A DNA stretch of 64,000 nt. Source: an uncultured virus (IMG/VR IMGVR_UViG_2684623068_000003). Taxonomy: Duplodnaviria; Heunggongvirae; Uroviricota; Caudoviricetes. Below are positions 18,736 through 51,439 of the stretch, piece by piece. Position 1 is the stretch's first letter, and each line of letters begins with the position of its first letter. Under the pieces are notes generated by a model. That model ran no database searches and was not told the DNA's origin. It saw only the letters and a program-made list of their open reading frames with translations. The stretch lies in the IMG/VR virus record IMGVR_UViG_2684623068_000003; one strand, given 5' to 3'. Position numbers and translations under genes: made by a program.

Positions 18736-19168
18736 GAAAGCCGCGCCGGTGTTGCGTAAAAATCCCGATATGCTGCGCCTGTTTGTGGATAACGGGACGA
18801 TTGCGAGCACGCTGGCCGCGACGCTATCGCATGAAAATCTATACACGCTCAATGTGATGGTGACCGATTATTCTGGCGATTTGGATTTGCTCATCGTGCC
18901 GATTAACGCATGGCTGCGTGAAAACCAGCCGGATATCATGACCACGGACGAGGGCAAGCGGAACGGCTTCACCTACTTTGCTGACCTGAATAATCACGAC
19001 AGTATCGATGTGAGTTTTAGCCTGCGCCTCACCGAGCGCGTTATCGTCAAACAGGTAGATAAGGCGCTTCATGTGAAGCACCTCAGTGAGCCACCAATCC
19101 CGCAGCCGGTTGAGCGCCCCATGGCGCTCTATATCAATGGCGAGCTAGTGAGTCAGTGGGATGAATGA
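18701..19168 (+). CDS. R: Tail completion protein gpR
   Basis: MLKPKSLREAL..WLRENQPDIMTT. Confidence 0.94.
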   Translation: MLKPKSLREALEKAAPVLRKNPDMLRLFVDNGTIASTLAATLSHENLYTLNVMVTDYSGDLDLLIVPINAWLRENQPDIMTTDEGKRNGFTYFADLNNHDSIDVSFSLRLTERVIVKQVDKALHVKHLSEPPIPQPVERPMALYINGELVSQWDE

Positions 19169-19610
19169 GCTCAAACAGTTTGAGGAACGGCTCGCGGGGC
19201 TGATTGGCAACCTAACGCCGGTACAGCGCCGCAAAATTGCGGTCGAAGTGGCGAAGCGCTTGCGCAGCAGTCAAAAGCAGCGCATTAAGCAACAAAAAGC
19301 GCCCGACGGCACCCCTTACGCCAGCCGAAAACCGCAACCGGCCAGCGGTAAACGAGGCCGCGTAAAGCACCAGATGTTCGCCAAGCTGCGCACCAATCGC
19401 TTTATGAAAGCGCAAGGCTCAAGCGATGCCGCCGTGGTGGAGTTTGTCGGGCGTGTTCAACGCATGGTTCGGATACATCAAGAGGGTTTAAGCGATAAGC
19501 CGAACCGGTTTAGTCGTGAGGTTAAATACGATGCGCGCCCTCTGTTGGGGTTTAGTGCATCGGATAAGGATATAGTCGAGGAGGTGATGACTGCATTTCT
19601 TAGCGAGTGA
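19161..19610 (+). CDS. S: Tail completion/virion morphogenesis protein gpS
   Basis: QQKAPDGTPYASRK..MFAKLRT..YDARPLLG. Confidence 0.94.
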   Translation: MNELKQFEERLAGLIGNLTPVQRRKIAVEVAKRLRSSQKQRIKQQKAPDGTPYASRKPQPASGKRGRVKHQMFAKLRTNRFMKAQGSSDAAVVEFVGRVQRMVRIHQEGLSDKPNRFSREVKYDARPLLGFSASDKDIVEEVMTAFLSE

Positions 19611-19663
19611 TAGGTTTTAGTCACCAGTATCCAAAAGTTTGCTTGGGGTAAAGTTAACACTAG

Positions 19664-19691
19664 CAGTCCGCTTTGAGCGAGGAGCGGAAGT
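19664..19691 (-). repeat. 28-bp cassette-boundary site, type A (spacer TCGCTC)
   Basis: Minus strand ACTTCCGCTCC-TCGCTC-AAAGCGGACTG; matches 51412-51439 of prophage 2. Confidence 0.85.
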
Positions 19692-19807
19692 TCGCTTTAA
19701 AGGGTAACTAATCCGCTTGTCTGACGATCTCTGAAACAGAGTGAGCCACTTTGCTATGATACTTACACATAGGCCTATGCTATTCATAAGCCTATGAAAA
19801 AAATTAG

Positions 19808-20683
19808 TCAAAAATCTAAATCTACCGCATGATTGGACGGTTGATGCAAATTTTCTGCAGGATGCAAGGAATTCATGTAATCAATTATCTCTTGATTTTG
19901 TAACAAGGCAGAATAAAATGCACTCTGCCAATCTTTTCCAATGTCTGGCTGTGGAATCTCTGATAAACGTTGCTTTAATGCTGTACTCACGTCAAATTTT
20001 GCATTGGCCAATCTTCTCTTCCATTGCCGGAATTCCTTTTTGCTATAATGAATAATTCGTGATTTAATTTTTAATTTTTCCGCATGAATAATCACTCGCC
20101 TTTGGTCATCAGCCTGAGTTTCTATAATTCTTTTTAACTTTACCACTACAGATATATCATTGCTTTCAGTATTTAATGAGACATTCATTGAGAAACGAAA
20201 ATTCTCCAGAAAATTGAAATAAATAGGATGTATAAACATAGCTAAGTTATTTTCATTGCAATAATAATGCTCGCCTTTTACTGGAGCACAGCCTCTACAC
20301 TGAGGTACTAGATTATTAGGGAAAATAGAAAATTCAGGCCATTTTCCTTTAGGGATAAAATGATCTAAAGTGTCAGGAATCATTGGATTTCCACAGTAAG
20401 GGCAAAAGGAAAGTTCGTGTTCATTCCTTCTTTTAAGTAATAATTTGTTTAATTCCTTTGGTGCTTTTTCATAATATTCAATTAATAGATCAGAATGCTG
20501 TAGGAATGCACTCTCAGGTAGCGCATCATTACTAGAATCTATCAGACTATCATATGAACTATAATTATCAGATAGTTCTTCAGCTATAAGTTTAAGTTGT
20601 TGAACATTTTCTTTTTTACTTCCTCTTGCCGCGTCAAGCCATGCGCAAGGCTGATTTTCCATGAGTTCGCCTAAGTATTTCAT
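19808..20683 (-). CDS. HNH endonuclease (PtuB-like)
   Basis: CPYCG..TLDHFIPK..NNLVPQCRGC; translationally coupled to upstream ATPase. Confidence 0.85.
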   Translation of the reverse strand: MKYLGELMENQPCAWLDAARGSKKENVQQLKLIAEELSDNYSSYDSLIDSSNDALPESAFLQHSDLLIEYYEKAPKELNKLLLKRRNEHELSFCPYCGNPMIPDTLDHFIPKGKWPEFSIFPNNLVPQCRGCAPVKGEHYYCNENNLAMFIHPIYFNFLENFRFSMNVSLNTESNDISVVVKLKRIIETQADDQRRVIIHAEKLKIKSRIIHYSKKEFRQWKRRLANAKFDVSTALKQRLSEIPQPDIGKDWQSAFYSALLQNQEIIDYMNSLHPAENLHQPSNHAVDLDF

Positions 20684-22329
20684 TATTCATCCTCAAAAGA
20701 CATCTTGTCATCATCTGATTTTGAAAGTGCATAAGCTAATGCATCATTGCCGATATACCCCTTAATTTCAGAAATAGATGAGCTATCGCGAATGAAATAT
20801 TTATCAATCTCTTTTTGATAAGGCTTGCTTACATATTCATCATCGAATACTTCCGAGACTATTACATCAATTGACTCCCCATATGTTTCAACTGAGGATC
20901 TAAATACTTTGGTGTTCCCTTCAATTTTTCGTAATATAGTTACTGCATCTCTTTCAACTTCACGTGTCAATATTGATGAATGAGTGGCAATTATAGAAAA
21001 AGATTTTGTTTCATCCAAAATGTTCTTGAGCATGTTTATCAAACCAACTTCAAGCTCAGGGTGTAAGTAAAGTTCAGGTTCATCGAGGATTAATAAACTT
21101 TCTTCTTCAAGCTCAGATATTATTGCCGGAATCATATATGTATAAATTTTCTGACCTGAGCTTAGAGGAATTATGGCACCGTTTTTTTTAAAGATTAATC
21201 CTTTTTTTAAATTTATGTTTTCTTTGATGCTATTGATTCTAGTTTTTTCGTTTATGCAAATTTCATCACCACCATTATCCAGTATCGATATTGAATCAAA
21301 GGCTATTGAAATGGATAATGTTTCTTTTAGAAGTTGAAATCTCGTTTTATCATTCCACCAACCGTTTTCTTCATCATAACTTAGTATTTTAATAATTGAT
21401 TCAACGCTTTTTAAAACTGGGTATTCCGGGTCAAAGATTCCATCCTGATTTCTAAACCCTATATAAGAGTATTCATTTACATGTAAACGCTTTCTTTTCA
21501 AGCTTTTTTTGTTAGCTAAAGAGCCTTCCCGTGAATATTTTACCGTTAGCTTGTTGAATATTTCATTTTCTGTATAGAAGTCTTCAAATGGTGAGTGCGC
21601 AATAACTATTAACTTGTGAAAATAAGGTGGGTGCTCTTCACCGTCTGTAACACCTGTTATAACTTCACTTATTCTCTTCAATATATGGGTTTTGCCAACA
21701 CCATTCTTTCCGATTATAAGACAGATATTTGACTTCCCAACCTTTCTGTCCATGTTGAATTTAAAACTAATAGGGTCAAAACTCTCACCGAGGCTTTCAA
21801 TGTTCAGCTCAAATTTAGTTTTAGGATTATATCTCCCCAGTGCTATTTGATATCCTTTTTTCAAAATTGCAGCAGAAGAACTTCCTCTCATTAAACTACC
21901 TGAATATCCACCCCATTCAGAGTATTCGCTTTGATTCCTTAGAAAATATCCAGCATCACATAAAGATTCTAGCAGGGCATCTATTTTCTCTGGTTGAAAT
22001 AGTGAGTTTATCTTTTTATAATAGTCTATATCTTCACCAATCGAAACCAACTTATTTTCAGACAGTACGCCATTAATATTAATAATTTTTAGCTCAATTT
22101 CTTCACCATGTTCTTTAAAGTAAAGTGATGTGTTTTCATTTACTTTGGAAAGCATTTTTATATTGCCAATTTTTATCTTATCAGTATCTCTTACATAATA
22201 TACTTTGAACGTAATGATATATCCGAAGTCATCCCATGGAACTCCATAGTTTGTTCCTATATGATCCTGAAGCAAATGAATTCCAGGATATTTATCAATC
22301 ATTAATGTTTCCGAGTAGTAATAATCCAT
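20683..22329 (-). CDS. ABC/AAA_21-type ATPase (PtuA-like)
   Basis: Walker A GKNGVGKT, signature LSSGQK, Walker B LLILDEPE-LHP, switch IATHS; N-terminal WDDFGY. Confidence 0.88.
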   Translation of the reverse strand: MDYYYSETLMIDKYPGIHLLQDHIGTNYGVPWDDFGYIITFKVYYVRDTDKIKIGNIKMLSKVNENTSLYFKEHGEEIELKIININGVLSENKLVSIGEDIDYYKKINSLFQPEKIDALLESLCDAGYFLRNQSEYSEWGGYSGSLMRGSSSAAILKKGYQIALGRYNPKTKFELNIESLGESFDPISFKFNMDRKVGKSNICLIIGKNGVGKTHILKRISEVITGVTDGEEHPPYFHKLIVIAHSPFEDFYTENEIFNKLTVKYSREGSLANKKSLKRKRLHVNEYSYIGFRNQDGIFDPEYPVLKSVESIIKILSYDEENGWWNDKTRFQLLKETLSISIAFDSISILDNGGDEICINEKTRINSIKENINLKKGLIFKKNGAIIPLSSGQKIYTYMIPAIISELEEESLLILDEPELYLHPELEVGLINMLKNILDETKSFSIIATHSSILTREVERDAVTILRKIEGNTKVFRSSVETYGESIDVIVSEVFDDEYVSKPYQKEIDKYFIRDSSSISEIKGYIGNDALAYALSKSDDDKMSFEDE

Positions 22330-22657
22330 TTTAATTCCTTTGAGTGACTAATTATCAAAAATACTCATGAGAATACATTCATTAAATTGTATACATTCTC
22401 TTAACATAGTATGAGTTTATAGCATCGTTTTTTGAAGCTTAATGCTTTGGTGATTTTCCAATAAAACATACAGCCCCAGATTAATAGATGACGTTAACAC
22501 TCTTAAAACAAAATTTACACTGCGAGGGGAAAATATAACAAAACATTACCATTATGTAAGCCCCTTAGCATAGGTTTATCAGTTTTTTACCACATAATCG
22601 AATAAATATGTGCGTTAGTGAACTATCCATAACTATCAACGCCAAGTGAGATTTACA

Positions 22658-22685
22658 ACGTCCGTTCCTGGCACTAAACAGTCCA
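22658..22685 (+). repeat. 28-bp cassette-boundary site, type B (spacer TGGCAC)
   Basis: ACGTCCGTTCC-TGGCAC-TAAACAGTCCA; matches 44585-44612 (minus) of prophage 2. Confidence 0.85.
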
Positions 22686-22756
22686 TCCCTGTTGTCTGAT
22701 CTCCCATCCTACGCACTCACATTGCCGCTAACCCTCCCTAGCTGCATGCTTTCCCC

Positions 22757-23395
22757 ATGAGCACACAATCCCAACTATCCGAAATCTCGCGCCTACTGCG
22801 CAATCTTATCCGCACCGGTGTCGTGTCCGAAGTCGATGCCGATGGAGCCCTGTGCCGCGTCCAAACCGGTGACATACAAACCGGTTGGATTAACTGGCTG
22901 GCGCGTCGCGCTGGCCGTTCGCGTGACTGGTGGGCTCCGTCGGTGGGGGAACAGGTGTTATTGCTGGCCGTCGGCGGCGAGCTCGATACCGCCTTTGTCC
23001 TGACCGGCATTTACTGCGATGAATTCCCCGCCCCGTCGGCGTCTGCCGATGGTTGGCGCGTCGAGTTTCCTGACGGCGCGGTCATCGAGTACGAGCCCGA
23101 TACCGGCAAACTCAGCGTAAGCGGCATTAAAAGCGCGGATGTGACCGCCTCGGCGTCGGTGGTGGTGACTTGCCCGTCCGTCACCGTGACCGCCAGCCAA
23201 AAAATTATCCTCGATACCCCCGAAGTGGTTTGCACCAACAAGCTGACCACCGGCTCTATCGAGGTGAAAAAAGGCGGCACGATGCGCGGCACCATCGAAC
23301 ACACCGGCAAATTTACCTCCAACGGCGTGCAGGTTGACGATCATGGTCACGGCGGCGTTGAGCGTGGTGGCTCTTGGACGGAGGACACGAAATGA
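22757..23395 (+). CDS. V: Baseplate spike gpV
   Basis: NLIRTGVV..RAGRSRDWWAPSVGEQV..HGHGGV. Confidence 0.95.
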   Translation: MSTQSQLSEISRLLRNLIRTGVVSEVDADGALCRVQTGDIQTGWINWLARRAGRSRDWWAPSVGEQVLLLAVGGELDTAFVLTGIYCDEFPAPSASADGWRVEFPDGAVIEYEPDTGKLSVSGIKSADVTASASVVVTCPSVTVTASQKIILDTPEVVCTNKLTTGSIEVKKGGTMRGTIEHTGKFTSNGVQVDDHGHGGVERGGSWTEDTK

Positions 23396-23742: not shown

Positions 23743-24651
23743 ATGGCAACCATTGACCTAAGCCTGCTCCCCGCGCCCGATGTGGTCGAGGTGCTGGACT
23801 ACGAAAGCATTTTAGCCGAGCGCAAGGCGACGCTGTTGTCGCTGTGTGACGAAAGCCAGCGCGAGGCGGTAGCACGTACCTTACAGCTCGAATCGGATCC
23901 GCTGACCAAGTTGCTCGAAGAAAGCGCTTACCGCGAGGTGATGTGGCGCCAACGGGTGAACGAAGCCGCTCGGGCGAACATGCTGGCCTATGCCACCGGC
24001 GGCGATCTGGATAACCTCGGCGCGAACTATAACGTTGAGCGTCTGGTCATTACGCCCGCCGATACCACCGCGATTCCCCCTCTGGCCGCCGTGCTGGAGT
24101 CCGACAACGATTTTCGGGTACGTATTCAGCAAGCCTTTGAGGGCTTAAGCGTGGCTGGTTCAGTCGGTGCGTATCAATTCCATGGCCGAAGTGCTGACGG
24201 TCGGGTGGCCGACGTATCGGTCATTAGTCCCACACCGGCGTGCGTGACGGTCTCGGTGCTCTCGCGTGAGGGGAACGGCGCGGCCAGCAATGAGTTGATC
24301 CAGATAGTAAACCTCGCGCTTAACGCCGAAGACGTGCGCCCCGTTGCTGACCGTGTGACAGTGCAAAGTGCCGAAATTGTGCCGTATCAGATTGAGGCCG
24401 AGCTCTATCTCTATCCGGGGCCGGAAGTCGAGCCAGTACGCGAAGCCGCTGAGGCCAAACTGAAAACCTACATCACTACTCAGCACCGCCTCGGGCGCGA
24501 CATTCGTAAATCGGCCATCTATGCCGCGCTCCATGTGGAAGGTGTACAACGTGTTGAGCTCGCGCAGCCGGTCGCCGATATCGTGCTCGATGAGACTCAG
24601 GCGTCCTATTGCTCTGATTATGCGATCACCATTGGGGGCGCGGATGAGTGA
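23743..24651 (+). CDS. J: Baseplate protein gpJ
   Basis: IDLSLLPAPDVVE..GLSVAGSVGAY..VRPVADRV. Confidence 0.95.
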   Translation: MATIDLSLLPAPDVVEVLDYESILAERKATLLSLCDESQREAVARTLQLESDPLTKLLEESAYREVMWRQRVNEAARANMLAYATGGDLDNLGANYNVERLVITPADTTAIPPLAAVLESDNDFRVRIQQAFEGLSVAGSVGAYQFHGRSADGRVADVSVISPTPACVTVSVLSREGNGAASNELIQIVNLALNAEDVRPVADRVTVQSAEIVPYQIEAELYLYPGPEVEPVREAAEAKLKTYITTQHRLGRDIRKSAIYAALHVEGVQRVELAQPVADIVLDETQASYCSDYAITIGGADE

Positions 24652-25183
24652 TAACCGCCTGTTACCGGTTGGCTCCTCGCCGCTGGAGGTGGCCGCCGCG
24701 ATTGCCTGCGCTGAGATAGAGCGAACCCCGATACCGCTACGCCAGCTCTGGAACCCGAAAACCTGCCCGGTAAACCTGTTGCCCTATCTGGCGTGGGCGT
24801 TCTCGGTTGACCGCTGGGATGCGACGTGGCCGGAAGAAACCAAGCGCGACGTAATTGCGGCGGCGTATTACATCCACAGCCGCAAAGGCACCATTAGCGC
24901 CGTACGCCGCGTGGTTGAGCCGCTGGGCTACGTGATTAACGTCAATGAGTGGTGGGAGACCAATGACCCGCCCGGCACCTTTCGGCTCGATATTGGCGTA
25001 CTGGAAAGCGGCATCACCGAGGAAATGTATTTCGAGATGGAGCGACTTATCGCGGATGCAAAGCCCGCCAGTCGCCACCTCATCGGACTCAACATTATTC
25101 AAGATATCGCCGGTTATGCCTACACCGGCGTCGCCCTGTACGACGGCGACATTATTACCGTTTACCCTGACCTAGAGAGCTAA
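24644..25183 (+). CDS. I: Tail protein gpI
   Basis: LLPVGSSPLE..LLPYLAWAFSVDRWD. Confidence 0.95.
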   Translation: MSDNRLLPVGSSPLEVAAAIACAEIERTPIPLRQLWNPKTCPVNLLPYLAWAFSVDRWDATWPEETKRDVIAAAYYIHSRKGTISAVRRVVEPLGYVINVNEWWETNDPPGTFRLDIGVLESGITEEMYFEMERLIADAKPASRHLIGLNIIQDIAGYAYTGVALYDGDIITVYPDLES

Positions 25184-25187
25184 CCCG

Positions 25188-27062: not shown

Positions 27063-27073
27063 GGAATAGAACA

Positions 27074-27610: not shown

Positions 27611-27627
27611 TTTACCCCGTTTATCTT

Positions 27628-27651: not shown

Positions 27652-27657
27652 GCCTGT

Positions 27658-28935: not shown

Positions 28936-28948
28936 GGATTAACCCGCT

Positions 28949-43530: not shown

Positions 43531-43878
43531 TTAACTCACAGGTACGTTAAGGGAGAAGGTGCCGCCGGTATCGGTCAGGGTGCCGGTGATATCGACCACC
43601 ATCTCGCCGTTAAACCGGTTATCGAACGTGATGGCCGTGAGCCTAACGCGGGGCTCCCACTTTAAAATCGCCATGTAACAGGCGGCCATAATTTGTAGGT
43701 TGAGCGCGGCGTTCTGCGGTTGGTCAATCAGGGCAGATAGGAGCGAACCATACTCACGACGCATGACCCGCGTGCCGACCGGCGTGATTAGAATATCGCG
43801 CACGCTTTGGCGAATATGGGCGAGGTCATCAAGCTGCTGGCCGTCGTCTCGGCTCATGCCTGAATAACGCGCCGTCAT
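43531..43878 (-). CDS. W: Baseplate protein gpW
   Basis: Near-identical to 23392-23739. Confidence 0.95.
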   Translation of the reverse strand: MTARYSGMSRDDGQQLDDLAHIRQSVRDILITPVGTRVMRREYGSLLSALIDQPQNAALNLQIMAACYMAILKWEPRVRLTAITFDNRFNGEMVVDITGTLTDTGGTFSLNVPVS

Positions 43879-44513
43879 TTCGTTCCCTCCGTCCATTCAC
43901 CGCCGCCTTTAACGCCGCCATGCCCATGTTTATCAACCTGTACGCCGTTCGAGGTGAATTTGCCGGTGTGTTCTATGGTGCCGCTCATCGTGCCGCCTTT
44001 TTGCACCTCGATAGAGCCGGTGGTTAGCTTGTTGGTGCAAATCACTTCGGGGGTATCGAGGGTGATTTTTTCGCTGGCGGTCACGGTGACGGACGGGCAA
44101 GTCACCACCACCGACGCCGAGGCGGTCACATCCGCGCTTTTTATACCGCTCACACTAAGCGCGCCGGTATCGGGCTCGTACTCGATGACCGCGCCGTCAG
44201 GAAACTCGACGCGCCAACCATCGGCAGACGCCGACGGGGCGGGAAAGTCATCACAATAAATGCCGGTCAGGACAAAGGCGGTATCAAGCTCGCCGCCGAC
44301 GGCCAGCAATAACACCTGCTCCCCCACCGACGGAGCCCACCAGTCACGCGAACGGCCAGCGCGACGCGCCAGCCAGTTAATCCAACCGGTTTGTATTTCG
44401 CCGGTTTGGACGCGGCACAGGGCTCCATCGGTATCGACTTCGGACACGACACCGGTGCGGATAAGGTTGCGCAGTAGACGCGAGATTTCGGATAGTTGGG
44501 ATTGTGTGCTCAT
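43875..44513 (-). CDS. V: Baseplate spike gpV
   Basis: Near-identical to 22757-23395. Confidence 0.95.
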   Translation of the reverse strand: MSTQSQLSEISRLLRNLIRTGVVSEVDTDGALCRVQTGEIQTGWINWLARRAGRSRDWWAPSVGEQVLLLAVGGELDTAFVLTGIYCDDFPAPSASADGWRVEFPDGAVIEYEPDTGALSVSGIKSADVTASASVVVTCPSVTVTASEKITLDTPEVICTNKLTTGSIEVQKGGTMSGTIEHTGKFTSNGVQVDKHGHGGVKGGGEWTEGTK

Positions 44514-44584: not shown

Positions 44585-44612
44585 TAGACTGTTTAGTGCC
44601 AGAAGCGGACAT
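44585..44612 (-). repeat. 28-bp site, type B
   Basis: ATGTCCGCTTC-TGGCAC-TAAACAGTCTA. Confidence 0.85.
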
Positions 44613-44721
44613 ATCTTCAGATATTCTTATGGTGAAAAAACACAGCCATCAATTATTGTTCAATATCAATAATCAAAGCATGTTAGAGTTTCATTCGTAA
44701 GGAAAATCTCATCAGAAAAAT

Positions 44722-44749
44722 GCTTTATCACAGTGCCAAAAGTGGATAA
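44722..44749 (-). repeat. Degenerate type B site
   Basis: TTATCCACTTT-TGGCAC-TGTGATAAAGC; shares GTGCCAAAAGTGG with 46216-46228. Confidence 0.45.
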
Positions 44750-44830: not shown

Positions 44831-46105
44831 ATGAGTGTCATAAAAGATTTTTTAGAACAATATAGCAAGCAGTATGATTACTATTCTGAGTTGGCAAAAA
44901 TTGGCTCAAACTTGCTCGAGCAGGAATTGGAGAAGAGAGGGATTAAAGCCATAGTTTCATTCAGAGCTAAGCGACCAGACCGCTTAGAACAAAAACTTAA
45001 TCAAAGAAATGAAAAGTCAGCATATGCAGATGTTGCTAATATATATGAAGATATCGTCGACCTGGCCGGTGTTCGAGTAGCTTTATATTTTCCAAAAGAT
45101 AGAGAAGTAGTTGATGAAACTATTAATTTTTTATTTAACGTCCGAAAAAAGAAAAACTTTCCAGAAGCATCTTATAAACCTAAGTTTGAAAAAAGATTTT
45201 CTGGTTACTGGGCATCTCATTATCGTGTCAATTTGAAAAACTCTAACCAAAATAAGAAGCGTTACGAAAGTGCATTATTTGAGATTCAAGTAGCATCGGT
45301 TCTTATGCATGCCTGGTCGGAAGTCGAACATGACCTTGTTTACAAACCTCTAGCAGGCGATTTGTCTGAAGAGGAACTTGCAATCCTGGATGAGATTAAT
45401 GGATTAGTGCTTACTGGCGAAATAGCTCTTGAAAGACTTCAAAAAGCCATAACAAAAAGAACTAAAGAAAAAGATAATATTTCAAATAGATATGAATTAA
45501 CGAGTTTTATAACCAACTCACTTAATAAGAATTATATAAACAAACTTAAATTAGGTGATACTAAAATTTTATTTAATTATCTCAAAGATAATTCTAGCAT
45601 AAGCGTCAGTGAACTTTCTGAATATTTGCGTAAAATTAATCAAAGTGAAAAAGAAACAATCACAGATCAATTGCTTCTTATGATTATTAATGATTCATAC
45701 AAGAGCGTTGGAAGTAATTTAAATCTTTCAAATTATTTCAAACATGCTCTTGGGGAACATAAGGATGTATCAGGGTTTGAGTCATTTGTTAAAACATGGA
45801 TTTTACTAGAAAAAGCAGTGTCTTTAATTCACAATCAAAACAATCGCCAGCACAAAAAATTCTTCACCGCAAAATTTGAGCCATTGGTTTCTGACGGAGT
45901 GCTGACGCAGGAAGAGTCAATTGAACTAAACTATTTTAAAAGAATTAGAAATAACTTACTTCATGGTATAGAAACACCTAACGATAAAGATCTAAACGAA
46001 ATGTTCGTTAGGTTGTTAGCATTAACTGAGAAGATTATCTCATCTATTAAAAATGATGATGATAAAGCTAAATTGCTCAAAGAAATAAAGACATTGAGTG
46101 ATTAA
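44831..46105 (+). CDS. RelA/SpoT (small alarmone synthetase-type) domain fused to a C-terminal HEPN-like domain
   Basis: RAK, DLAGVRV, GYWASHY, EIQVASVLMHAWSEVEHDLVYK; C-terminal FVKTWILLEK..RIRNNLLHG (RX4H). Confidence 0.85.
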   Translation: MSVIKDFLEQYSKQYDYYSELAKIGSNLLEQELEKRGIKAIVSFRAKRPDRLEQKLNQRNEKSAYADVANIYEDIVDLAGVRVALYFPKDREVVDETINFLFNVRKKKNFPEASYKPKFEKRFSGYWASHYRVNLKNSNQNKKRYESALFEIQVASVLMHAWSEVEHDLVYKPLAGDLSEEELAILDEINGLVLTGEIALERLQKAITKRTKEKDNISNRYELTSFITNSLNKNYINKLKLGDTKILFNYLKDNSSISVSELSEYLRKINQSEKETITDQLLLMIINDSYKSVGSNLNLSNYFKHALGEHKDVSGFESFVKTWILLEKAVSLIHNQNNRQHKKFFTAKFEPLVSDGVLTQEESIELNYFKRIRNNLLHGIETPNDKDLNEMFVRLLALTEKIISSIKNDDDKAKLLKEIKTLSD

Positions 46106-46178: not shown

Positions 46179-46232
46179 ATGTCCGCTCCTCGCTCAAAGC
46201 AGCCCACTCCGCTTCGTGCCAAAAGTGGCAGT
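46179..46232. repeat. Back-to-back type A (46179-46206, +) and type B (46205-46232, -) sites
   Basis: ATGTCCGCTCC-TCGCTC-AAAGCAGCCCA / ACTGCCACTTT-TGGCAC-GAAGCGGAGTG. Confidence 0.85.
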
Positions 46233-46329: not shown

Positions 46330-46713
46330 CTACAATTTTTTAATCAGATTCTCAATATTGGCTGGTTCAAAGTAATGCGGATTAACTTCACCATTTATGA
46401 GGAAACCATCTTTAAGTAGGTCTTCAAGTTCACTCTCTACCTCTTTGTCGAAGATACCTGGATATATTCTCTTGTATGCCTGAAAGGTACCTTTCATCTT
46501 CCTGCAAGCATTTTCCGCGATTTCGAATGAGATCTCGTTTCCTGCATTAAAGGCCGGTATGAAGATCTCAAGAATATCGTTCTTTAGCTTCTGCTTAAGT
46601 TTCTTCTTTTCAACGATATTTGAGTAACAGATACCTAAAAAGAAGGTGAAGATACCAGGAACCCAATTGTTAACGAAAACTTCAAGAATCCCTTTAATAG
46701 ACAAAGTGTCCAC
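46330..46713 (-). CDS. Hypothetical protein with N-terminal TM helix
   Basis: 127 aa; GTG start with AGGAG SD; hairpin ACCCCGC-AAGA-GCGGGGT downstream (46302-46319). Confidence 0.7.
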   Translation of the reverse strand: MDTLSIKGILEVFVNNWVPGIFTFFLGICYSNIVEKKKLKQKLKNDILEIFIPAFNAGNEISFEIAENACRKMKGTFQAYKRIYPGIFDKEVESELEDLLKDGFLINGEVNPHYFEPANIENLIKKL

Positions 46714-46928
46714 TATCTTACTCCTGAATTAAGATTGAGGTTCATAAAGTACAAACCCAGTACAAGTCGGGTATTAAACTGCAGGTCGAATACGTTATTT
46801 ATTATACAGCGTTCATGTGAAAGTGCTTCACCTTTGGTGGCAAATTGCATGCGAATCCGTTTGCCGCTTGCCCTAAATAGATAACACTCGCTAAACCACT
46901 TTCCTGATAGGTGCTTACGAACGATCAT
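46713..46928 (-). pseudogene. 5' remnant of a P2-family integrase
   Basis: MIVRKHLSGKWFSECY..GKRIRMQFATKGEALSHE aligns by eye to the N-terminus of int at 1-1056. Confidence 0.85.
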
Positions 46929-47169
46929 TCTGTTTAGGCTTCATGAGTAAATCCCGGATTTTCGCAAGGTTTGAATTTTCGGGGGCTGAATCCATGTATG
47001 GATCGCGCTCAAACACTAATTGCTCAGACTCAACAAAAGCATGCCACTCTACTGGGTCTAGCTCAAATTCCATCGCCGACATATCACTTTCATCTTCCCC
47101 CTTGATCCAGCGGACTAAATAAAACAATTCATCATCAGGATGACTCATCATCGTCATCAACAATATCAA
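46915..47169 (-). CDS. Hypothetical acidic protein, probably 5'-truncated
   Basis: 84-aa ORF overlapping the int remnant start; weak start. Confidence 0.4.
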   Translation of the reverse strand: MILLMTMMSHPDDELFYLVRWIKGEDESDMSAMEFELDPVEWHAFVESEQLVFERDPYMDSAPENSNLAKIRDLLMKPKQNDRS

Positions 47170-47385: not shown

Positions 47386-47450
47386 ACTTCTGTTCCTCGC
47401 TCAAAGCAAACCCAATGACCACGTAACCGTTGCGTGCCAGAAGCCGACTT
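47386..47450. repeat. Back-to-back type A (47386-47413, +) and type B (47423-47450, -) sites
   Basis: ACTTCTGTTCC-TCGCTC-AAAGCAAACCC / AAGTCGGCTTC-TGGCAC-GCAACGGTTAC. Confidence 0.82.
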
Positions 47451-47536: not shown

Positions 47537-48061
47537 ATGGGGCTGCTGGCCCACAAAAGAAAGGATGTACGAGATCGAGCTATGCGTATTCATCAGCAGA
47601 ATAAGTCCCGTAAACTATATCGCAGCGTCAACACGACGACGCGGCACCATTCTAATAATCCGGGTGCTGAGTATCGGTGGGAACGAAATCGCAAAAAAGT
47701 CGGAGATGAGCTACTGGTAAAGCGCGAGACAATGCATAGCAGACAGAAGCGTGGCCGAGACTACACACCATTGTTTTATTTTCTGATCAAAGAGATTGGC
47801 AAGCCGTGGAATGAAATATTCAGCGAAGTATGTGGACGTCTTGATACCACCGAGCCGGTATTCTGGTTGGTCGCGCTACATGAGCATCAGCGAAGGGGTC
47901 TAGTCTGCATTGGTGAAAGCAGTTTTTACCCAGGTCTGTTTGTTGATGAGAATGGAATTCTGCAACAGGTAAACCTTTCAATCACAAGAGATGACGTTAA
48001 GGTGACATGTCGTTGCTGCACACACACTTATATTGGTGAACCTGTACCTTGGATAGATTGA
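47537..48061 (+). CDS. Hypothetical basic protein with C-terminal CRCCTH motif (start may be 47582)
   Basis: 174-aa ORF filling the interval between two site pairs; DYTPLF, PVFWLV, GLFVDENG. Confidence 0.7.
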   Translation: MGLLAHKRKDVRDRAMRIHQQNKSRKLYRSVNTTTRHHSNNPGAEYRWERNRKKVGDELLVKRETMHSRQKRGRDYTPLFYFLIKEIGKPWNEIFSEVCGRLDTTEPVFWLVALHEHQRRGLVCIGESSFYPGLFVDENGILQQVNLSITRDDVKVTCRCCTHTYIGEPVPWID

Positions 48062-48119: not shown

Positions 48120-48180
48120 ACATCCGTTACTCACTTACTCCGGGCAGTTAGCCCTTCCGCAATGTGCCAGGAACGGACAT
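48120..48180. repeat. Degenerate type A (48120-48147, +) and type B (48153-48180, -) sites
   Basis: ACATCCGTTAC-TCACTT-ACTCCGGGCAG / ATGTCCGTTCC-TGGCAC-ATTGCGGAAGG. Confidence 0.75.
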
Positions 48181-48230: not shown

Positions 48231-49145
48231 CTAGTGCTTTTCAAGTATTTCATACGAGAACTCCACATGTGGATGAACATACTCTGCTGAATTAATCTCA
48301 CGTTGCACATTATCAATTGTTACAACGCAGAGAACCCCATTGGTGTTTAGTAGGACAGCCTTTTGCCCTACAGCCGGAGTAACAGAACGACCTGGAGTTA
48401 AGAAAGAATTGACAGTCAAGGGATCAAAATCTGCAACTGTAATCAACCCGACGGCTTTGAGTCCACCATCTATATAGAGGTAAACACTACTGTCTGAGTG
48501 TGCACTAAATGCTATTTTAAACTGATATTCACTGTTACCAATCGTATAGTGGGCATTGTCTTTGAAGCGAAAAATCTCGCGTCCCTTGAGTGCTGGATTC
48601 GCATAATGCGAAGGAGCACGAAGAATATCAATATGTTCAAGCCTTGCAATACGTTGACGATAAACCGATAATGGAGTCGTATGCTTTTTATCTGTTGGCA
48701 GTCCTTCAATCCAACGCCAAATAGCATCGATCTGTATAGAGCCAGGAAATTCATTTCTATCAGGATTAGAATTAAAGTCAAAGCCCTTAGGATTATGCCC
48801 CTCAAGCCAATTAGGTAGTTTTCGCTCAGGATTTCGAACAAAGATAACCGACAACCATGTCGAGTGCTTTGTCATAAAAGCTTCACTTATCCATTTGTTT
48901 TCGATACCAACCCCTGAATTCGGTTTGTTATTAGCTCGTTGGACATAGTTATCGTCGACAATCAACAGTACATGATCGGTTTCGATAACCTCTCGCATGA
49001 AACCAGATAAGCTTGAACCATATTTTACAGATTCATCGATTTTAACCGTATAGCCAATAAGGTCGAGATGGCTTGCAATTAGTCGAACCCATTCCCTATG
49101 GACATCTGAAGTCCAAGCGTATGAAATAAATAAATCGGTTTTCAT
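48231..49145 (-). CDS. TIR (TIR_2/SEFIR-like) domain protein with beta-rich C-terminal domain
   Basis: LFISYAW..HREWV..ID..G.SL..FM..VLLIVDDNY..GVGIE (putative catalytic Glu). Confidence 0.88.
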   Translation of the reverse strand: MKTDLFISYAWTSDVHREWVRLIASHLDLIGYTVKIDESVKYGSSLSGFMREVIETDHVLLIVDDNYVQRANNKPNSGVGIENKWISEAFMTKHSTWLSVIFVRNPERKLPNWLEGHNPKGFDFNSNPDRNEFPGSIQIDAIWRWIEGLPTDKKHTTPLSVYRQRIARLEHIDILRAPSHYANPALKGREIFRFKDNAHYTIGNSEYQFKIAFSAHSDSSVYLYIDGGLKAVGLITVADFDPLTVNSFLTPGRSVTPAVGQKAVLLNTNGVLCVVTIDNVQREINSAEYVHPHVEFSYEILEKH

Positions 49146-49289: not shown

Positions 49290-49317
49290 TCGTCCGCCCT
49301 TCGCTCAGAGCTGCCTT
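49290..49317 (+). repeat. Type A site
   Basis: TCGTCCGCCCT-TCGCTC-AGAGCTGCCTT. Confidence 0.75.
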
Positions 49318-49349
49318 TCATGCCTGCTTATAAAATAGGCTTAGCGTAG

Positions 49350-49644
49350 GATAGTTAGGGGCACGACGACTACGATTTATCCGCGTATCCACACCGCCTT
49401 CATCGGCCAGTTCGCGGTAACCATAGAACGAATCACGTGAAATTCCCATGATTTTACAGGCTTTTGATACATTGCTGAGTTCTTCAGCCAAATTGAGTAA
49501 ACCGGCTTTGTGTTTGATAATGCGATTGGTAGTATGAAGCATGAGAGTTACCTTGTGTTTTGTGTAAGGATTCGACACTCATATCAAAACCGGTAATCCT
49601 CAACCTTTCAAGGCCATGTGTCAGATCAAGTCGCGACTGATACA
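49350..49644 (-). mobile_element. IS481-family remnant (left end plus truncated transposase)
   Basis: End TGTATCAGTCGCGACTTGATCTGACA (49619-49644); MLHTTNRIIKHKAGLLNLAEELSNVSKACKIMGISRDSFY. Confidence 0.85.
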
Positions 49645-49672
49645 GGTAATGTGTCCACCACGCTAAATTTGA

Positions 49673-50416
49673 TTAACTCTCAAGAGTATCAAGGCCTTCT
49701 ACGTAATTTTTTTTCAAATCTTCTATAAGCTTGGGTAGTTTTCTGATTATGCTTTCATCCCTATAAAAATCGGTATGTTCAGCCTGTGTCAGAAAATCTA
49801 TAATATCAGTTCGAGTGTGAATCCCTTTATTTTCATCATAGCAGTCCACAAAGGCTTTAATCCCATAAAAAAGGTCTACTCGTCGTTCCTGTAAGGTTTT
49901 ATTCTTGCTCAACAATAGTTCATTTTCTTTCTGTAGCTCTAAATTTTCTTGCTCTAAGTTATTGGCTTTCTTGGTTTTATCCGCTATAGATGCTCTTAAT
50001 TTTTGGTACTCATTTTCCACCTCAAGGTCAGCCATCCCATCTTCGCGCCTGATTTTTGCAAACCACTTCGAGGTGAATTTGGAAACATTATAAGTTACAA
50101 ATGGGGCACCTAGAGAGACTATTAATCCTGTAACAAGAGGCAATCCAAAATGTGCAGACCATGGTGATAAAAAGAAATCGCCAATGAAGGGAAGACAGAA
50201 ACTCTGACCAGTGAAAATCATAGACAGGGTGTAATAAATATCCTCTTTGGTCTTGATTAAAATAATTATTTCTTGCCAATTTAGGACAAAAAATGAAACT
50301 AAGACGTAGAAGTATATTTTATTAAATAATTTAGTTCTTAATTCGCCATGTAATGTTCCCAATACACTTGGCTTATCAAGCTTATCCTCACTGTTATTTG
50401 CACTTTCCACACTCAT
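49673..50416 (-). CDS. Hypothetical membrane protein with coiled coil
   Basis: 247 aa; hydrophobic N-half, LEQENLELQKENELL heptads; AT-rich. Confidence 0.75.
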   Translation of the reverse strand: MSVESANNSEDKLDKPSVLGTLHGELRTKLFNKIYFYVLVSFFVLNWQEIIILIKTKEDIYYTLSMIFTGQSFCLPFIGDFFLSPWSAHFGLPLVTGLIVSLGAPFVTYNVSKFTSKWFAKIRREDGMADLEVENEYQKLRASIADKTKKANNLEQENLELQKENELLLSKNKTLQERRVDLFYGIKAFVDCYDENKGIHTRTDIIDFLTQAEHTDFYRDESIIRKLPKLIEDLKKNYVEGLDTLES

Positions 50417-50502
50417 AGCCCTTTATATACTCAGTTTATATTAATCCATTAACGAATAGCACCGCTGCAAACAACCGGTGCTATTCAACATAATTTAATT
50501 TT

Positions 50503-50922
50503 TTATAAAAACAATTCTGGTTTCACACCAAAACGAGCCGACAGTGCCTTAATGTGAGTAATGGTCAAAGAGCGCTGGCCAGACAGAATCTGGCTAACCA
50601 GTGATTTAGAGCCGATCTCCTCTTTGAGATCAGAGTAAGACAGCTTGTGCTGGTCAATCAGGGTACGCAGCAGTGCAACGCCGACCGGCATTTCAGCGTT
50701 AGCTTTGTTGAATTCAGCGAAACGAGGGCTATTATCTTCATAGTCGGCAATCTTACTCACCAAAAAGTCAATAAGCGGGTTCTCGTCGTCGTTCTCGATC
50801 AAGTAGTCCACCAGCTCCAACGCTTCGCGGTAATCGCTCTCGGACGAACTGCCCCCTAGGAAGGGGACAGCAGCTATGAGTTGTTTGGTTGCTTCAATGG
50901 CTTTTGCGGTGTCGGTAATCAT
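50503..50922 (-). CDS. higA: HigA antitoxin (HTH)
   Basis: LLRTLIDQHKLSYSDLKEEIGSKSLVSQILSGQRSLT..LSARF. Confidence 0.92.
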   Translation of the reverse strand: MITDTAKAIEATKQLIAAVPFLGGSSSESDYREALELVDYLIENDDENPLIDFLVSKIADYEDNSPRFAEFNKANAEMPVGVALLRTLIDQHKLSYSDLKEEIGSKSLVSQILSGQRSLTITHIKALSARFGVKPELFL

Positions 50923-51230
50923 TCTTTGTTCTCCCTGTAATAGCGGGTCAACTTGTCGTAATCAGCGTGGGTTGCGATGTGCTTCACATAGAAGCGCTTA
51001 TTCATGAAATTGATATAGACAATAACCCTCAAGTTGTTGCCTCCTACATTTAAAACCCACCACTTGTTCCGGTACTTGAAATTATCCATGCTCGGTATCA
51101 GAGTTGGCATCTCAGTTGGAGAAGAGAAATCCGTCTCGCGCACTAAGCGGTACAGTGCCCGAATGGCTAACGAATCGTTGGGATATCGCTTTGCCGCTTC
51201 CTCAAAAGGCTCTTTTGAAATTACGTGCAT
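50919..51230 (-). CDS. higB: HigB toxin (RelE-like mRNase)
   Basis: MHVISKEPF..WWVLNVGGNNLR..FYVKHIATHADYD; toxin-first order. Confidence 0.92.
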   Translation of the reverse strand: MHVISKEPFEEAAKRYPNDSLAIRALYRLVRETDFSSPTEMPTLIPSMDNFKYRNKWWVLNVGGNNLRVIVYINFMNKRFYVKHIATHADYDKLTRYYRENKE

Positions 51231-51411: not shown

Positions 51412-51439
51412 ATGTCCGCTCCTCGCTCAAAGCGGACTG
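51412..51439 (+). repeat. Type A site (S-proximal)
   Basis: ATGTCCGCTCC-TCGCTC-AAAGCGGACTG, internal dyad GTCCGCT/AGCGGAC. Confidence 0.88.

What the first reader, a model, noticed from the sequence alone, without database searches (positions are those of the whole stretch)
19611..22756. Natural control: same two boundary sites, different cargo, in two co-resident prophages
Seen: the S-side flank of prophage 1 (19614-19688) matches prophage 2 (51415-51490, reverse) through the type A site and then diverges (GCGGA|AGTT versus GCGGA|CATT). The V-side flank matches back to CTGGCAC, with the inner arm differing (TCCGTTC versus TCCGCTT). Prophage 1 has about 3 kb of cargo and prophage 2 about 6.8 kb of unrelated cargo. 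Inferred: exchange happens at or within these sites, probably by site-specific recombination.
Basis: partly seen in the sequence, partly recalled or inferred. Interest (0 to 1): 0.8.

Follow-up and report, generated by a model that had tools for sequence, protein, structure and literature searches.

The report
Recombinase sites bounding swappable prophage cargo
Two neighbouring P2-like prophages carry completely different accessory (mostly anti-phage) genes between the same pair of short recombinase-type DNA sites, and comparison with hundreds of other phages and bacteria indicates that gene cassettes are cut in and out exactly at these sites, which may explain how phages trade defence genes.

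Summary
Confirmed. The S and V flanks of the two prophages align up to window 19688/51415 and from 22660/44610. The interiors of 2,971 and 6,804 bp share only extra site copies.

The boundaries are two 24-bp sites with the same inverted 9-bp arms (GTCCGCTYY) and different 6-bp spacers: A = GAGCGA, B = TGGCAC.

Prophage 2's cargo is an array, A-cargo-B-(short)-A-cargo-B. Four close relatives have an empty S-V junction with neither site. All 5 loci that carry the sites hold different cargo.

In an unbiased set of 80 P2 G-FI loci (47 distinct cargos), sequence is fixed through the spacer. It varies from the first base of the cargo-side arm, at both sites.

A block of prophage 2 recurs at 98% identity in an E. 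coli island. It recurs circularly permuted in four other organisms, with joints inside the spacers.

A 200-aa tyrosine recombinase sits between B and A in other arrays. It is absent from this window.

Best reading: site-specific cassette integration and exchange. This scan found the same system before on other DNA. Inverted repeats flanking P2 fun were reported in 2004; I could not read that paper.

The parts
19161..19610 (+). gene S (tail completion) of prophage 1
   Evidence: ORF list. Its relatives carry Pfam Phage_tail_S (protein 42). It is 90% identical in DNA to the prophage 2 copy.
19611..19665 (+). 55-nt outer leader that travels with the A site and is not phage backbone
   Evidence: It is absent from the 4 empty close relatives, where the S stop codon abuts CTGTTGTCTGA. 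A similar leader precedes A in lambdoid loci.
19666..19689 (+). A site of prophage 1: GTCCGCTTT GAGCGA GGAGCGGAA
   Evidence: Homology with prophage 2 ends at 19688.
19808..22329 (-). cargo of prophage 1: a two-gene candidate defence system. PDC-M01B is 19808-20683 and the PDC-M01A AAA ATPase is 20683-22329.
   Evidence: PADLOC E 7.7e-128 and 4.1e-248. Pfam AAA_21.
22660..22683 (+). B site of prophage 1: GTCCGTTCC TGGCAC TAAACAGTC. The outer arm is degenerate.
   Evidence: Homology with prophage 2 resumes at 22660.
22757..23395 (+). gene V (baseplate spike) of prophage 1
   Evidence: ORF list. Its relatives carry Phage_base_V and Phage_spike (protein 22).
51414..51437 (-). A1 site of prophage 2: GTCCGCTTT GAGCGA GGAGCGGAC
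49318..51230 (-). first block of prophage 2. It holds HigB-like (50919-51230), an HTH antitoxin-like gene (50503-50922), a 247-aa ORF (49673-50416) and an 86-aa IS-type HTH fragment (49318-49578).
   Evidence: Pfam HigB_toxin, HTH_3 and HTH_29. PD-Lambda-2 A/B-like. The fragment is 90% identical to E. coli ylbG, and that match stops where the leader of the next A site begins.
49292..49315 (-). A2 site, degenerate: GGCAGCTCT GAGCGA AGGGCGGAC
48231..49145 (-). cassette: bSEFIR/TIR-domain protein, 304 aa
   Evidence: PADLOC bSEFIR E 3.8e-43. Pfam TIR_2.
48155..48178 (-). B1 site: GTCCGTTCC TGGCAC ATTGCGGAA
   Evidence: The E. coli island shares sequence from the first base of this spacer onward. 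The joint seen in four runs lies within its spacer.
47537..48061 (+). cassette: 174-aa ORF of unknown family
   Evidence: no family. The B1-to-B2 block is 87% identical in locus L117.
47388..47448 (-). B2 (47425-47448) and a degenerate A3 (47388-47411) forming a B-A junction
46330..47169 (-). cassette of three small ORFs (84, 71 and 127 aa)
   Evidence: No family found. The region is 98% identical in E. coli island L397, where the annotation includes a DUF8087 protein.
46181..46230 (-). B3 (46207-46230) and A4 (46181-46204) forming a B-A junction
   Evidence: Contigs of other organisms leave the window sequence at 46196 and at 46201.
44831..46105 (+). cassette: 424-aa RelA/SpoT-domain protein
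   Evidence: Pfam RelA_SpoT E 1.5e-13. The cassette is 97% identical, from A to B, in the G-FI locus of L013 and L065.
44587..44747 (-). B4 (44724-44747) and B5 (44587-44610, GTCCGCTTC TGGCAC TAAACAGTC). B5 is the V-side boundary of prophage 2.
43875..44513 (-). gene V of prophage 2
   Evidence: 92.5% identical to the prophage 1 copy.

Best explanation
The cargo between S and V sits in a portable docking platform bounded by two core-type tyrosine-recombinase sites.

The sites. Both are 24 bp: two inverted 9-bp arms (GTCCGCTYY / RRAGCGGAC) around an asymmetric 6-bp spacer. The arms are the same in both sites. The spacers differ: GAGCGA in A and TGGCAC in B.

The proposed mechanism.
- Strand exchange happens in the spacer. 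Whatever lies on the cargo side of the spacer, including the inner arm, travels with the cargo. The outer arm stays with the platform.
- Like recombines with like (A with A, B with B).
- A circle carrying a B-A junction can enter at either kind of site. That builds arrays of the form A-cargo-B-A-cargo-B.
- Two crossovers, one at A and one at B, swap a cassette between genomes without deleting it. This is a natural counterpart of cassette exchange between heterospecific sites.

The enzyme. The most likely one is a ~200-aa, catalytic-domain-only tyrosine recombinase. In other arrays its gene lies between a B and an A site. It would act in trans here, because the window has no copy.

History of this window.
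- Prophage 1 holds one cassette, the PDC-M01 pair.
- Prophage 2 most likely started with the bSEFIR cassette.
- It then gained the HigBA block at A.
- It also gained, at B, a circle carrying the ORF174 gene, the small-ORF cassette and the RelA/SpoT cassette.

Shown: the site anatomy, the breakpoint positions, the shared and permuted cassettes, and the linkage of recombinase gene to sites.
Inferred: catalysis, the identity of the enzyme, incompatibility of A with B, and the order of events.
For: 1. Flanks match up to the sites and the cargo is unrelated.

2. Anatomy. A and B share arms and differ in spacer. Among 420 distinct 9-6-9 sites in 4.8 Mb of fetched loci, 202 have the spacer GAGCGA and 150 have TGGCAC. 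Most of the rest are one-base variants of these.

3. Grammar.
- A-to-B neighbours: n = 159, none under 340 nt apart, median 1,570 nt.
- B-to-A neighbours: n = 70, of which 48 are at most 100 nt apart, median 18 nt.

4. Breakpoints. All 5 S-V loci with the sites have different cargo, an invariant outer arm and spacer, and differing inner arms. The unbiased G-FI set of 80 loci (47 distinct cargos on each side) shows the switch from fixed to variable exactly at the cargo-side edge of the spacer.

5. Portability.
- The exact A 19-mer occurs in 81 IMG/VR stretches and 92 stretches of species genomes. Contexts include P2 tail genes, lambdoid Q/lysis regions and integrase-proximal positions.
- There are 143 distinct flank combinations. 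Six left flanks have several right flanks, and five right flanks have several left flanks.
- The RelA/SpoT cassette is 97% identical, A to B, in the G-FI locus of L013 and L065.
- Window 48169-46201 is 98% identical in an E. coli chromosomal island. The left break falls exactly at the arm/spacer border.

6. Permutation. In contigs of 4 runs from 4 organisms, blocks 46201-48163 and 44596-46196 stand in the other order. They are joined at 48163|44596 within 7 shared letters of the B spacer. Beyond 46196 two of the contigs run into the recombinase leader. This is what a circle opened at B here and at A there would give.

7. Enzyme.
- The recombinase passes Pfam Phage_integrase (65.5 bits against a cut-off of 27.1).
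- R53, H150, R153, H176 and Y185 are invariant in 26 aligned sequences.
- For copies at least 75% identical, 14 of 16 distinct 3' contexts hold a B site and 15 of 16 distinct 5' contexts hold an A site.
- In 301 genomes of the order, 4 of 7 genomes with a close copy have the A pattern, against 5 of 294 without one (Fisher p = 1.3e-5).
- The E. coli island carries a frameshifted copy.

8. Reference phage P2 has exactly two such sites, B and A, and they flank its Z/fun genes.
Against: - No recombinase of this family is in the window (best tblastn E 0.08). None is in any of the 80 V-related loci. The host genome is not held, so nothing says the sites are active here.
- 3 of 5 genomes that hold the exact A site have no copy at E <= 1e-10. 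5 of 9 A-pattern genomes in the 301-genome sample have none at E <= 1e-30.
- 36 of 41 filled S-V intervals in relatives carry cargo with no recognisable A or B. The hotspot itself therefore does not depend on the sites. How the platform first entered the S-V junction is unexplained; no target duplication is seen.
- The V-side outer arm of B in both prophages (TAAACAGTC) matches the consensus arm poorly.
- One shared block ends about 5 nt before the A4 spacer rather than in it. An 8-nt difference in the outer arm between the window and E. coli would account for this.
- Because spacers are identical between partners, breakpoints cannot be placed inside the spacer. Short-homology recombination over about 15-20 identical bases would leave similar footprints.
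- The recombinase model is of low confidence (mean pLDDT 58.9). It lacks the N-terminal core-binding domain of studied relatives.
Confidence: 0.65

Rival explanations
1. Short-homology recombination. A and B are kept for another reason, such as binding sites of a regulator or insulating hairpins. Cassettes are exchanged by general or phage-encoded homologous recombination that uses the roughly 15-24 identical bases as micro-homology. The small recombinase would be just another passenger.
For: Partners share identical outer arm, spacer and most of the inner arm, so homologous exchange would leave the same footprints. The sites persist in many genomes without the recombinase. The 2026 P2/P4 study leaves the mechanism open and lists homologous and illegitimate recombination as options (PMC13586616, Discussion read).
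Against: The 9-6-9 layout with two spacer classes is what tyrosine recombinases use. The recombinase gene lies in the B-to-A gap, in one orientation, in 14 of 16 and 15 of 16 contexts, and it co-occurs with the sites (p = 1.3e-5). Only 7 of 47 cargos have a T-run after A, so A is not a general terminator. The scan in the window found 1 terminator-like site against 1.6 expected.
Confidence: 0.15
2. The sites are real tyrosine-recombinase sites, but a different enzyme works on them: the host XerC/XerD or a phage integrase, not the 200-aa recombinase.
For: Most loci with sites, this window included, have no copy of the small recombinase. Every phage concerned has an integrase; the window's own is at 1-1056.
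Against: The sites occur in phages with unrelated integrases, both P2-like and lambdoid. The small recombinase is the only gene physically tied to the sites. I did not compare the sites with a dif site or with P2 att sites.
Confidence: 0.1
3. Ordinary homologous recombination in the flanking S and V genes between related P2-like phages moved the cargo. On this reading the sites are just part of the conserved flank.
For: The S and V flanks of the two prophages are 90-93% identical over hundreds of bases.
Against: The same cassettes and the same sites occur where the flanks share nothing beyond the site: the G-FI locus, lambdoid phages and an E. coli chromosomal island. Empty close relatives lack the sites and the 55-nt leader.
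Confidence: 0.05
4. A and B are the cores of terminal inverted repeats of a cargo-carrying, transposase-less DDE transposon (an IS481-type relative) that is mobilised in trans.
For: The outer flanks of A and B are inverted repeats of each other beyond the 24 bp (AATCTGACAGTCYGCT). Some cassettes add a ~45-nt inner inverted repeat. An IS-type HTH fragment lies next to A2 in prophage 2.
Against: One outer flank is joined to 47 different cargos, with the switch inside the repeat and not at its outer end. No target-site duplication is seen at the S-V insertion when compared with empty relatives. The IS-type fragment has no relative in 398 fetched loci.
Confidence: 0.05

Closest known systems
Inverted repeats flanking the fun (Z/fun) gene of phage P2 (Nilsson, Karlsson and Haggard-Ljungquist 2004, Mol Biol Evol 21:1). 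I know this only through a review sentence in PMC8987985 (passage read). The paper itself is not held.
   Same: The reference P2 genome has exactly one B and one A site, and they flank its Z/fun genes. [quoted passage not shown]
   Different: - Here the sites are in the S-V junction, a different P2 locus. P2's own S-V cargo has no such sites.
- They form multi-cassette arrays.
- They resolve into two classes with the same arms and different spacers.
- They occur in lambdoid phages and chromosomal islands.
- They are tied to a small recombinase gene.
I cannot say how much of this the 2004 paper already contains.
Integrons (IntI integrase, attI, attC gene cassettes)
   Same: Both have arrays of single- or few-gene cassettes bounded by recombination sites of a tyrosine recombinase. 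In both, circles are the likely intermediates. Arrays without the enzyme also occur in both. Defence genes are cargo in both; for integrons I saw only a search listing (bioRxiv 10.1101/2024.07.02.601686).
   Different: - Each cassette here has two different short palindromic duplex-type sites, one at each end. Integron cassettes have one long folded attC at the 3' end.
- The recombinase is 200 aa and scores 54 bits against a cut-off of 220 on the XerA/integron-integrase model.
- The enzyme's gene lies between the sites inside the array.
- Cargo genes point either way and appear to bring their own promoters.
- The platforms are phage hotspots.
Engineered recombinase-mediated cassette exchange with heterospecific lox or FRT sites
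   Same: A cassette is flanked by two sites with the same recombinase-binding arms and different spacers. This allows exchange without loss.
   Different: This one is natural. That A and B are incompatible is inferred from the spacers only. Arrays and single-site integration occur here as well.
Xer-dependent dif modules of Acinetobacter plasmids (recalled, not looked up)
   Same: Both have accessory-gene modules bounded by short arm-6 bp-arm sites of a tyrosine recombinase supplied in trans.
   Different: The recombinase here is not XerC or XerD: 43 and 27 bits against cut-offs of 335 and 330. The arms are 9 bp. The two sites differ in spacer, not in the order of their arms.
Small tyrosine DNA invertases (FimB/FimE type)
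   Same: The size is similar (about 200 aa), and both lack a long N-terminal domain.
   Different: The score is 25.5 bits against a cut-off of 222 on the invertase subfamily model. The sites flank cargo as A then B in one orientation, not as an invertible pair.

Membership tests
Core-type tyrosine-recombinase site (arm-spacer-arm) | Two inverted arms of about 9-13 bp around an asymmetric 6-8 bp spacer | tested here: met
   A is GTCCGCTTT GAGCGA GGAGCGGAC. B is GTCCGCTYC TGGCAC ARAGCGGAC. There are 420 distinct sites, 352 of them with one of the two spacers.
Core-type tyrosine-recombinase site (arm-spacer-arm) | Exchange points lie at the spacer | tested here: met
   Conservation switches at the cargo-side edge of the spacer at both sites: 80 loci, 47 distinct cargos. 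Joints lie within the B spacer and at the edge of the A spacer in 4 runs. The left break of the E. coli block is at the arm/spacer border. One boundary is about 5 nt off.
Core-type tyrosine-recombinase site (arm-spacer-arm) | Binding and cleavage by a cognate recombinase | not testable with these tools
   This needs gel-shift, suicide-substrate and in vivo assays.
Tyrosine recombinase (Pfam PF00589), for the 200-aa protein found between B and A elsewhere | Catalytic domain with the R...HxxR...H...Y residues | tested here: met
   PF00589 scores 65.5 bits against a cut-off of 27.1, over residues 37-186. R53, H150, R153, H176 and Y185 are invariant in 26 sequences. The fold was not checked because the model is poor (pLDDT 58.9).
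Tyrosine recombinase (Pfam PF00589), for the 200-aa protein found between B and A elsewhere | Present in this window or its genome | tested here: not met
   The best tblastn hit in the window has E 0.08. The host assembly is not held.
Integron | IntI-type integrase | tested here: not met
   The XerA/integron-integrase model scores 54.2 bits against a cut-off of 220. The protein has only 202 aa.
Integron | One attC per cassette at its 3' end, with promoterless cassettes all in one orientation behind Pc | tested here: not met
   Each cassette has an A at one end and a B at the other. Cargo genes lie on either strand.
Xer/dif modules | The recombinase is XerC/XerD | tested here: not met
   The XerC model scores 43 against 335 and the XerD model 26.6 against 330.
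Xer/dif modules | The sites resemble dif | not tested
P2 Z/fun flanking inverted repeats (Nilsson 2004) | The same repeats flank Z/fun in phage P2 | tested here: met
   In NC_070905.1, B is at 15446 and A at 17044. These are the only two sites in 32.5 kb and they flank gp22 and gp23 between G and FI. An A site plus 45 nt of prophage 2 matches P2 at 88%.
DDE transposon with terminal inverted repeats | Mobility of the whole unit, with breaks at the outer ends of the repeats and a target duplication | tested here: not met
   Breaks lie inside the repeats. No duplication is seen at the S-V insertion when compared with empty relatives. No related transposase was found in 398 loci.
Intrinsic terminator | A stem followed by a T-run | tested here: not met
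   7 of 47 distinct cargos have 5 or more T in 8 nt after the A stem. The A site of prophage 1 is the single terminator-like hit in 19500-22900, against 1.6 expected.

The most novel reading that the evidence does not exclude
A and B are the two heterospecific sites of a natural, phage-borne cassette-exchange system. It is run by a catalytic-domain-only tyrosine recombinase of about 200 aa whose gene sits between the sites. The system would be a duplex-DNA counterpart of the integron. It would dock in hotspots of P2-like and lambdoid phages and in chromosomal islands across Enterobacterales and some Alteromonadales. It would be the missing mechanism by which defence genes are swapped between otherwise unrelated mobile elements.
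Probability: 0.55. Interest if true: 0.9.

Novelty: new variant of a known kind. Interest (0 to 1): 0.8.

Why it matters
[quoted passage not shown] The most recent large study states that the recombination processes 'still need to be elucidated', and it found no transposons to blame (PMC13586616, Discussion read).

A defined pair of 24-bp sites plus a candidate enzyme turns that open question into bench experiments. It would also:
- give annotators a way to delimit cassettes, and so to find new defence genes by position;
- add a second kind of cassette system next to integrons;
- offer a compact (200 aa) recombinase with two naturally orthogonal sites as a possible genome-engineering tool.

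Tried and rejected
- Own genome: not held. The nearest provirus, G001, has no A site.
- The outer leader of the S-V platform as a pattern: only the 3 loci already known in IMG/VR and none in metagenome contigs. The S-V sample therefore stays at 5.
- Prophage 1 cargo with flanks, megablast: no match in E. coli genomes or plasmids. No hit among the fetched loci either.
- G-FI locus in the window's own phage lineage: mostly empty, without sites. The unbiased test was therefore run on the E. coli/Salmonella-type G-FI platform.
- PDB sequence search with the recombinase: only an irrelevant repeat protein.
- Structure model: mean pLDDT 58.9. It is too poor for a fold search, so none was run.
- IS-type fragment of prophage 2: no relative in the fetched loci.
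- Literature:
  - The site letters searched in full text gave 3 irrelevant papers.
  - Two term searches for a cassette system in prophages found nothing that describes this.
  - Nilsson 2004 is not held.
  - Supplements of the papers cited were not opened.
- Runs: no run holds half of the 7.2-kb stretch. The parts of the stretch without contig cover in the four runs laid (48256-51147) say nothing either way.
- The reading of the B hexamer TGGCAC as a sigma-54 element was considered from the sequence and dropped. The expected second element is not at the right spacing in any of the copies read; the sigma-54 consensus is recalled, not fetched.


Full report
OBSERVATION

The window holds two P2-like prophages in opposite orientation. 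Prophage 1 has S at 19161-19610 and V at 22757-23395, both on the + strand. Prophage 2 has S ending at 51493 and V at 43875-44513, both on the - strand.

A blastn of the two S..V intervals gives two flank alignments:
- 19161-19688 = 51942-51415, 90.3% identical;
- 22660-23395 = 44610-43875, 92.5% identical.

Between them it finds only 19-39-nt matches of the A site of prophage 1 to two internal sites of prophage 2. The interiors are 2,971 bp and 6,804 bp. The A 19-mer occurs 5 times in the window against 0.02 expected.

ANATOMY OF THE SITES

Read in full, both boundary elements are 24-bp sites of the same build:
- A is GTCCGCTTT GAGCGA GGAGCGGAC.
- B in its complete form is GTCCGCTYC TGGCAC ARAGCGGAC.

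The arms are the same and the spacers differ. In both prophages the V-side arm of B is degenerate (TAAACAGTC).

Prophage 2 is not one cargo but an array. From S to V it reads:
- A1;
- a HigBA-like pair, a 247-aa ORF and an IS-type HTH fragment;
- A2;
- a bSEFIR/TIR protein;
- B1;
- a 174-aa ORF;
- B2-A3;
- three small ORFs;
- B3-A4;
- a RelA/SpoT-domain protein;
- B4 and B5.

Prophage 1 carries the two-gene PADLOC candidate system PDC-M01.

RELATIVES OF THE S-V LOCUS

I fetched 80 IMG/VR loci by the V protein. With the two window copies, 79 intervals have both S and V.
- 38 are empty (68-76 nt). Four of these are close relatives, with V 92-96% identical. In them the S stop codon abuts CTGTTGTCTGA, and neither A nor B nor the 55-nt leader before A is present. 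The platform is therefore itself an insertion.
- 41 are filled. Only 5 of these carry the sites: the two window copies, L184, L185 and L186. In all 5 the leader, the outer arm and the spacer are identical. The cargo-side arm differs (GGAGCGGAA, GGAGCGGAC, GGAGCAGAC, GAAGCAGAC, AAAGCAGAA). The cargo is different in each, and the B side shows the mirror pattern.
- L177 has visibly decayed A and B. L175 and L182 have a decayed B.
- The other filled loci hold cargo without the sites, so the S-V hotspot is also used in other ways.

No empty A-B platform was found. 0 of 159 A-to-B neighbour pairs in all fetched DNA lie closer than 340 nt.

WIDER DISTRIBUTION

The exact A 19-mer occurs in 81 IMG/VR stretches. 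It also occurs in 92 stretches of species-representative genomes. These are mostly Enterobacterales, plus Pseudoalteromonas and Pseudidiomarina and a few likely chance hits.

Only 12 of the 81 viral loci hold S or V at all, and in none does A lie between them. The contexts are the G-FI (Z/fun) locus of P2-like phages, the Q/lysis region of lambdoid phages, and positions next to an integrase.

At 60 nt on each side there are 143 distinct flank combinations. At 40 nt, six left flanks are joined to several right flanks, and five right flanks to several left flanks.

Across all loci the grammar is A-cargo-B-(short)-A. B-to-A gaps have a median of 18 nt, and 48 of 70 are at most 100 nt. A-to-B gaps have a median of 1,570 nt. 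Of 420 distinct 9-6-9 sites, 202 have the spacer GAGCGA and 150 have TGGCAC. The A count is inflated, because many loci were fetched by the A pattern.

UNBIASED BREAKPOINT TEST

I anchored on 19 nt of outer flank of the G-FI platform. This says nothing about the site beyond GTCT. It returned 80 loci with 47 distinct continuations.

The majority-base fraction on the A side is:
- 0.89-1.00 over GCTTT GAGCGA;
- 0.62 and 0.40 at the next two bases;
- 0.79-0.94 over AGCGGA;
- 0.3-0.45 from 4 nt past the arm.

The B side is the mirror image. 73 of the 80 loci have the outer anchor, with 47 distinct ends. The spacer scores 0.94-0.98 and the two arm bases beside it score 0.53.

So one platform is joined to at least 47 cargos. 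The switch lies at the cargo-side edge of the spacer at both ends.

THE SAME CASSETTES ELSEWHERE

- The RelA/SpoT cassette of prophage 2 is 97% identical, from the A site to the end of B5, in the G-FI locus of L013 and L065. The inner arms are the same there and the outer arms differ.
- Window 48169-46201 is 98% identical in an E. coli chromosomal island. The left break falls exactly between the arm and the TGGCAC spacer of B1. The right break lies in front of A4, where the two sequences differ by 8 nt in the outer arm.
- That island is itself an array of A and B sites, with a frameshifted small integrase gene between a B and an A.
- No public run holds half of the 7.2-kb stretch, but 20 runs in 13 studies hold about a third of it.
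- In contigs of four runs from four organisms, blocks 46201-48163 and 44596-46196 are both present but in the other order. They are joined at 48163|44596, with 7 letters (GTGCCAG) fitting both sides, which places the joint in the B spacer.
- Beyond 46196 two of those contigs continue into the leader of the recombinase gene. Before 46201 three of them continue into another A site.
- This circular permutation is what one circle gives if it opens at B in one genome and at A in another.

THE CANDIDATE ENZYME

Clustering of 2,134 ORFs from the first 173 loci turned up a 200-202-aa protein with a Phage_integrase domain next to B sites.
- It passes Pfam's threshold over residues 37-186.
- The catalytic residues are invariant.
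- It reaches no curated NCBIfam family: XerA 54 bits against a cut-off of 220, XerC 43 against 335, invertase 25.5 against 222.
- It has no close solved relative.
- Its family is very large and 74-92% identical across Gammaproteobacteria. Sources give it only generic names.
- In 60 IMG/VR loci fetched by the protein, copies at least 75% identical have a B site within 70 nt after the stop in 14 of 16 distinct contexts. They have an A site within 110 nt before the start in 15 of 16. The gene therefore occupies the B-to-A gap, antisense to the A-to-B direction.
- In 301 genomes sampled from the order, 34 have a family member and 9 have the A pattern. The reversed-pattern control gave 0. Four genomes have both (p = 0.011). 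For close copies the figures are 4 of 7 against 5 of 294 (p = 1.3e-5).

Against this reading: the window has no copy, nor have the 80 V-related loci. 3 of 5 genomes with exact A sites have none.

MECHANISM

The best-supported reading is site-specific recombination in the spacers, with like sites pairing with like.
- A circle carrying a B-A junction, with or without the recombinase gene in it, can integrate at any A or any B. That produces the observed arrays.
- Crossovers at both A and B exchange a cassette.
- For prophage 2, the simplest history starts from a resident bSEFIR cassette. The HigBA block then entered at A. A circle carrying the ORF174 gene, the small-ORF cassette and the RelA/SpoT cassette entered at B. 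This accounts for the hybrid arms of B1 and B5.
- This history is inference.

RIVALS

- Short-homology recombination at conserved palindromes cannot be excluded from footprints alone.
- Another recombinase may be the enzyme.
- Flank homology alone, and a DDE-transposon reading, fit the data poorly.
- Intrinsic termination is not a general property of A: 7 of 47 cargos have the T-run.

WHAT IS KNOWN

[quoted passage not shown] 2004 (PMC8987985, passage read). I could not read that paper.
- The reference P2 genome indeed has one B and one A around Z/fun and nowhere else.
- The 2022 and 2026 hotspot papers do not mention sites. In PMC13586616 I read sections 24 and 30, and a term search found 'motif', 'palindrom' and 'inverted repeat' zero times. 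In PMC9122126 I read passages only.
- Full-text searches for the site letters and for a cassette system of this kind found nothing relevant.
- This scan has met the same sites and recombinase before on other DNA. I reached my reading before those look-ups and tested it on my own data.

What this window adds:
- a second P2 locus (S-V) that uses the sites;
- a within-cell pair of prophages that serves as a natural control;
- a direct case of circular permutation.

CAVEATS

- All of this is comparative inference.
- Activity in this host is unknown.
- The degenerate outer arm of B at the V side may mean these particular sites are fossil.
- How the platform first entered the S-V junction is unexplained.
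- Some cassettes carry an extra ~45-nt inner inverted repeat of unknown role.

Noticed in passing
window 43059-43064, compared with 24211-29428: Prophage 2 lacks the counterpart of prophage 1 positions 24212-29427. That stretch covers most of J, I, the tail fibre H, G, the sheath FI and most of the tube FII. The two alignments abut at 43059/43064. Prophage 2 is therefore a defective prophage that still carries a five-unit cargo array.
   Followed up: partly
window 8358-10838 (+): The classical A-to-Q (tin/old) hotspot of prophage 1 holds an 826-aa fused type II methyltransferase plus BsuBI/PstI-type restriction endonuclease. No A or B site was found there, so this hotspot uses another route.
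   Followed up: partly
window 60731-62464 (-): The corresponding hotspot of prophage 2, between portal gene Q and replication gene A, holds a 577-aa protein with no Pfam or PADLOC family.
   Followed up: no
window 51372-51413; also L009, L038, L100, L052 and others: Some cassettes carry a ~45-nt inner inverted repeat just inside both sites (RTTGCTAACA...CAACRGGGAGCAGGTC). It follows A1 of prophage 2 and lies next to the A site of reference P2. Its role is unknown. It may be an accessory binding site or a relic of another element.
   Followed up: partly
L104 8218-8250; rec loci L254-L298: The start of the small recombinase gene lies inside a near-perfect inverted repeat (ACTCAAATCTC...GAGATTTGAGT). 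Earlier notes of this scan read it as a hairpin that hides the ribosome-binding site. I did not test that.
   Followed up: no
L186, 875-981 nt after the S stop: One S-V platform of a close relative keeps a B-to-A gap of 59 nt whose A has the recombinase-proximal arm GTCCCTTAT. This looks like the scar of a lost recombinase gene inside the S-V locus.
   Followed up: no
L276, L278, L279, L306-L309: Recombinase copies about 60-74% identical are followed by sites with the same arm (AAGCGGAC) but a spacer of the TGGCCG type. This hints that spacer classes follow recombinase clades. It was not counted.
   Followed up: no
window 49354-49644: The IS-type HTH fragment in prophage 2 is 90% identical to the E. 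coli gene annotated ylbG, which matched in more than 3,000 E. coli records. The match stops exactly where the leader of site A2 begins.
   Followed up: partly
window 34400-38170: The two prophages lie tail to tail, about 3.8 kb apart. The DNA between them encodes an autotransporter-domain protein (35251-36414) and a BON/LysM protein (37109-37546).
   Followed up: no
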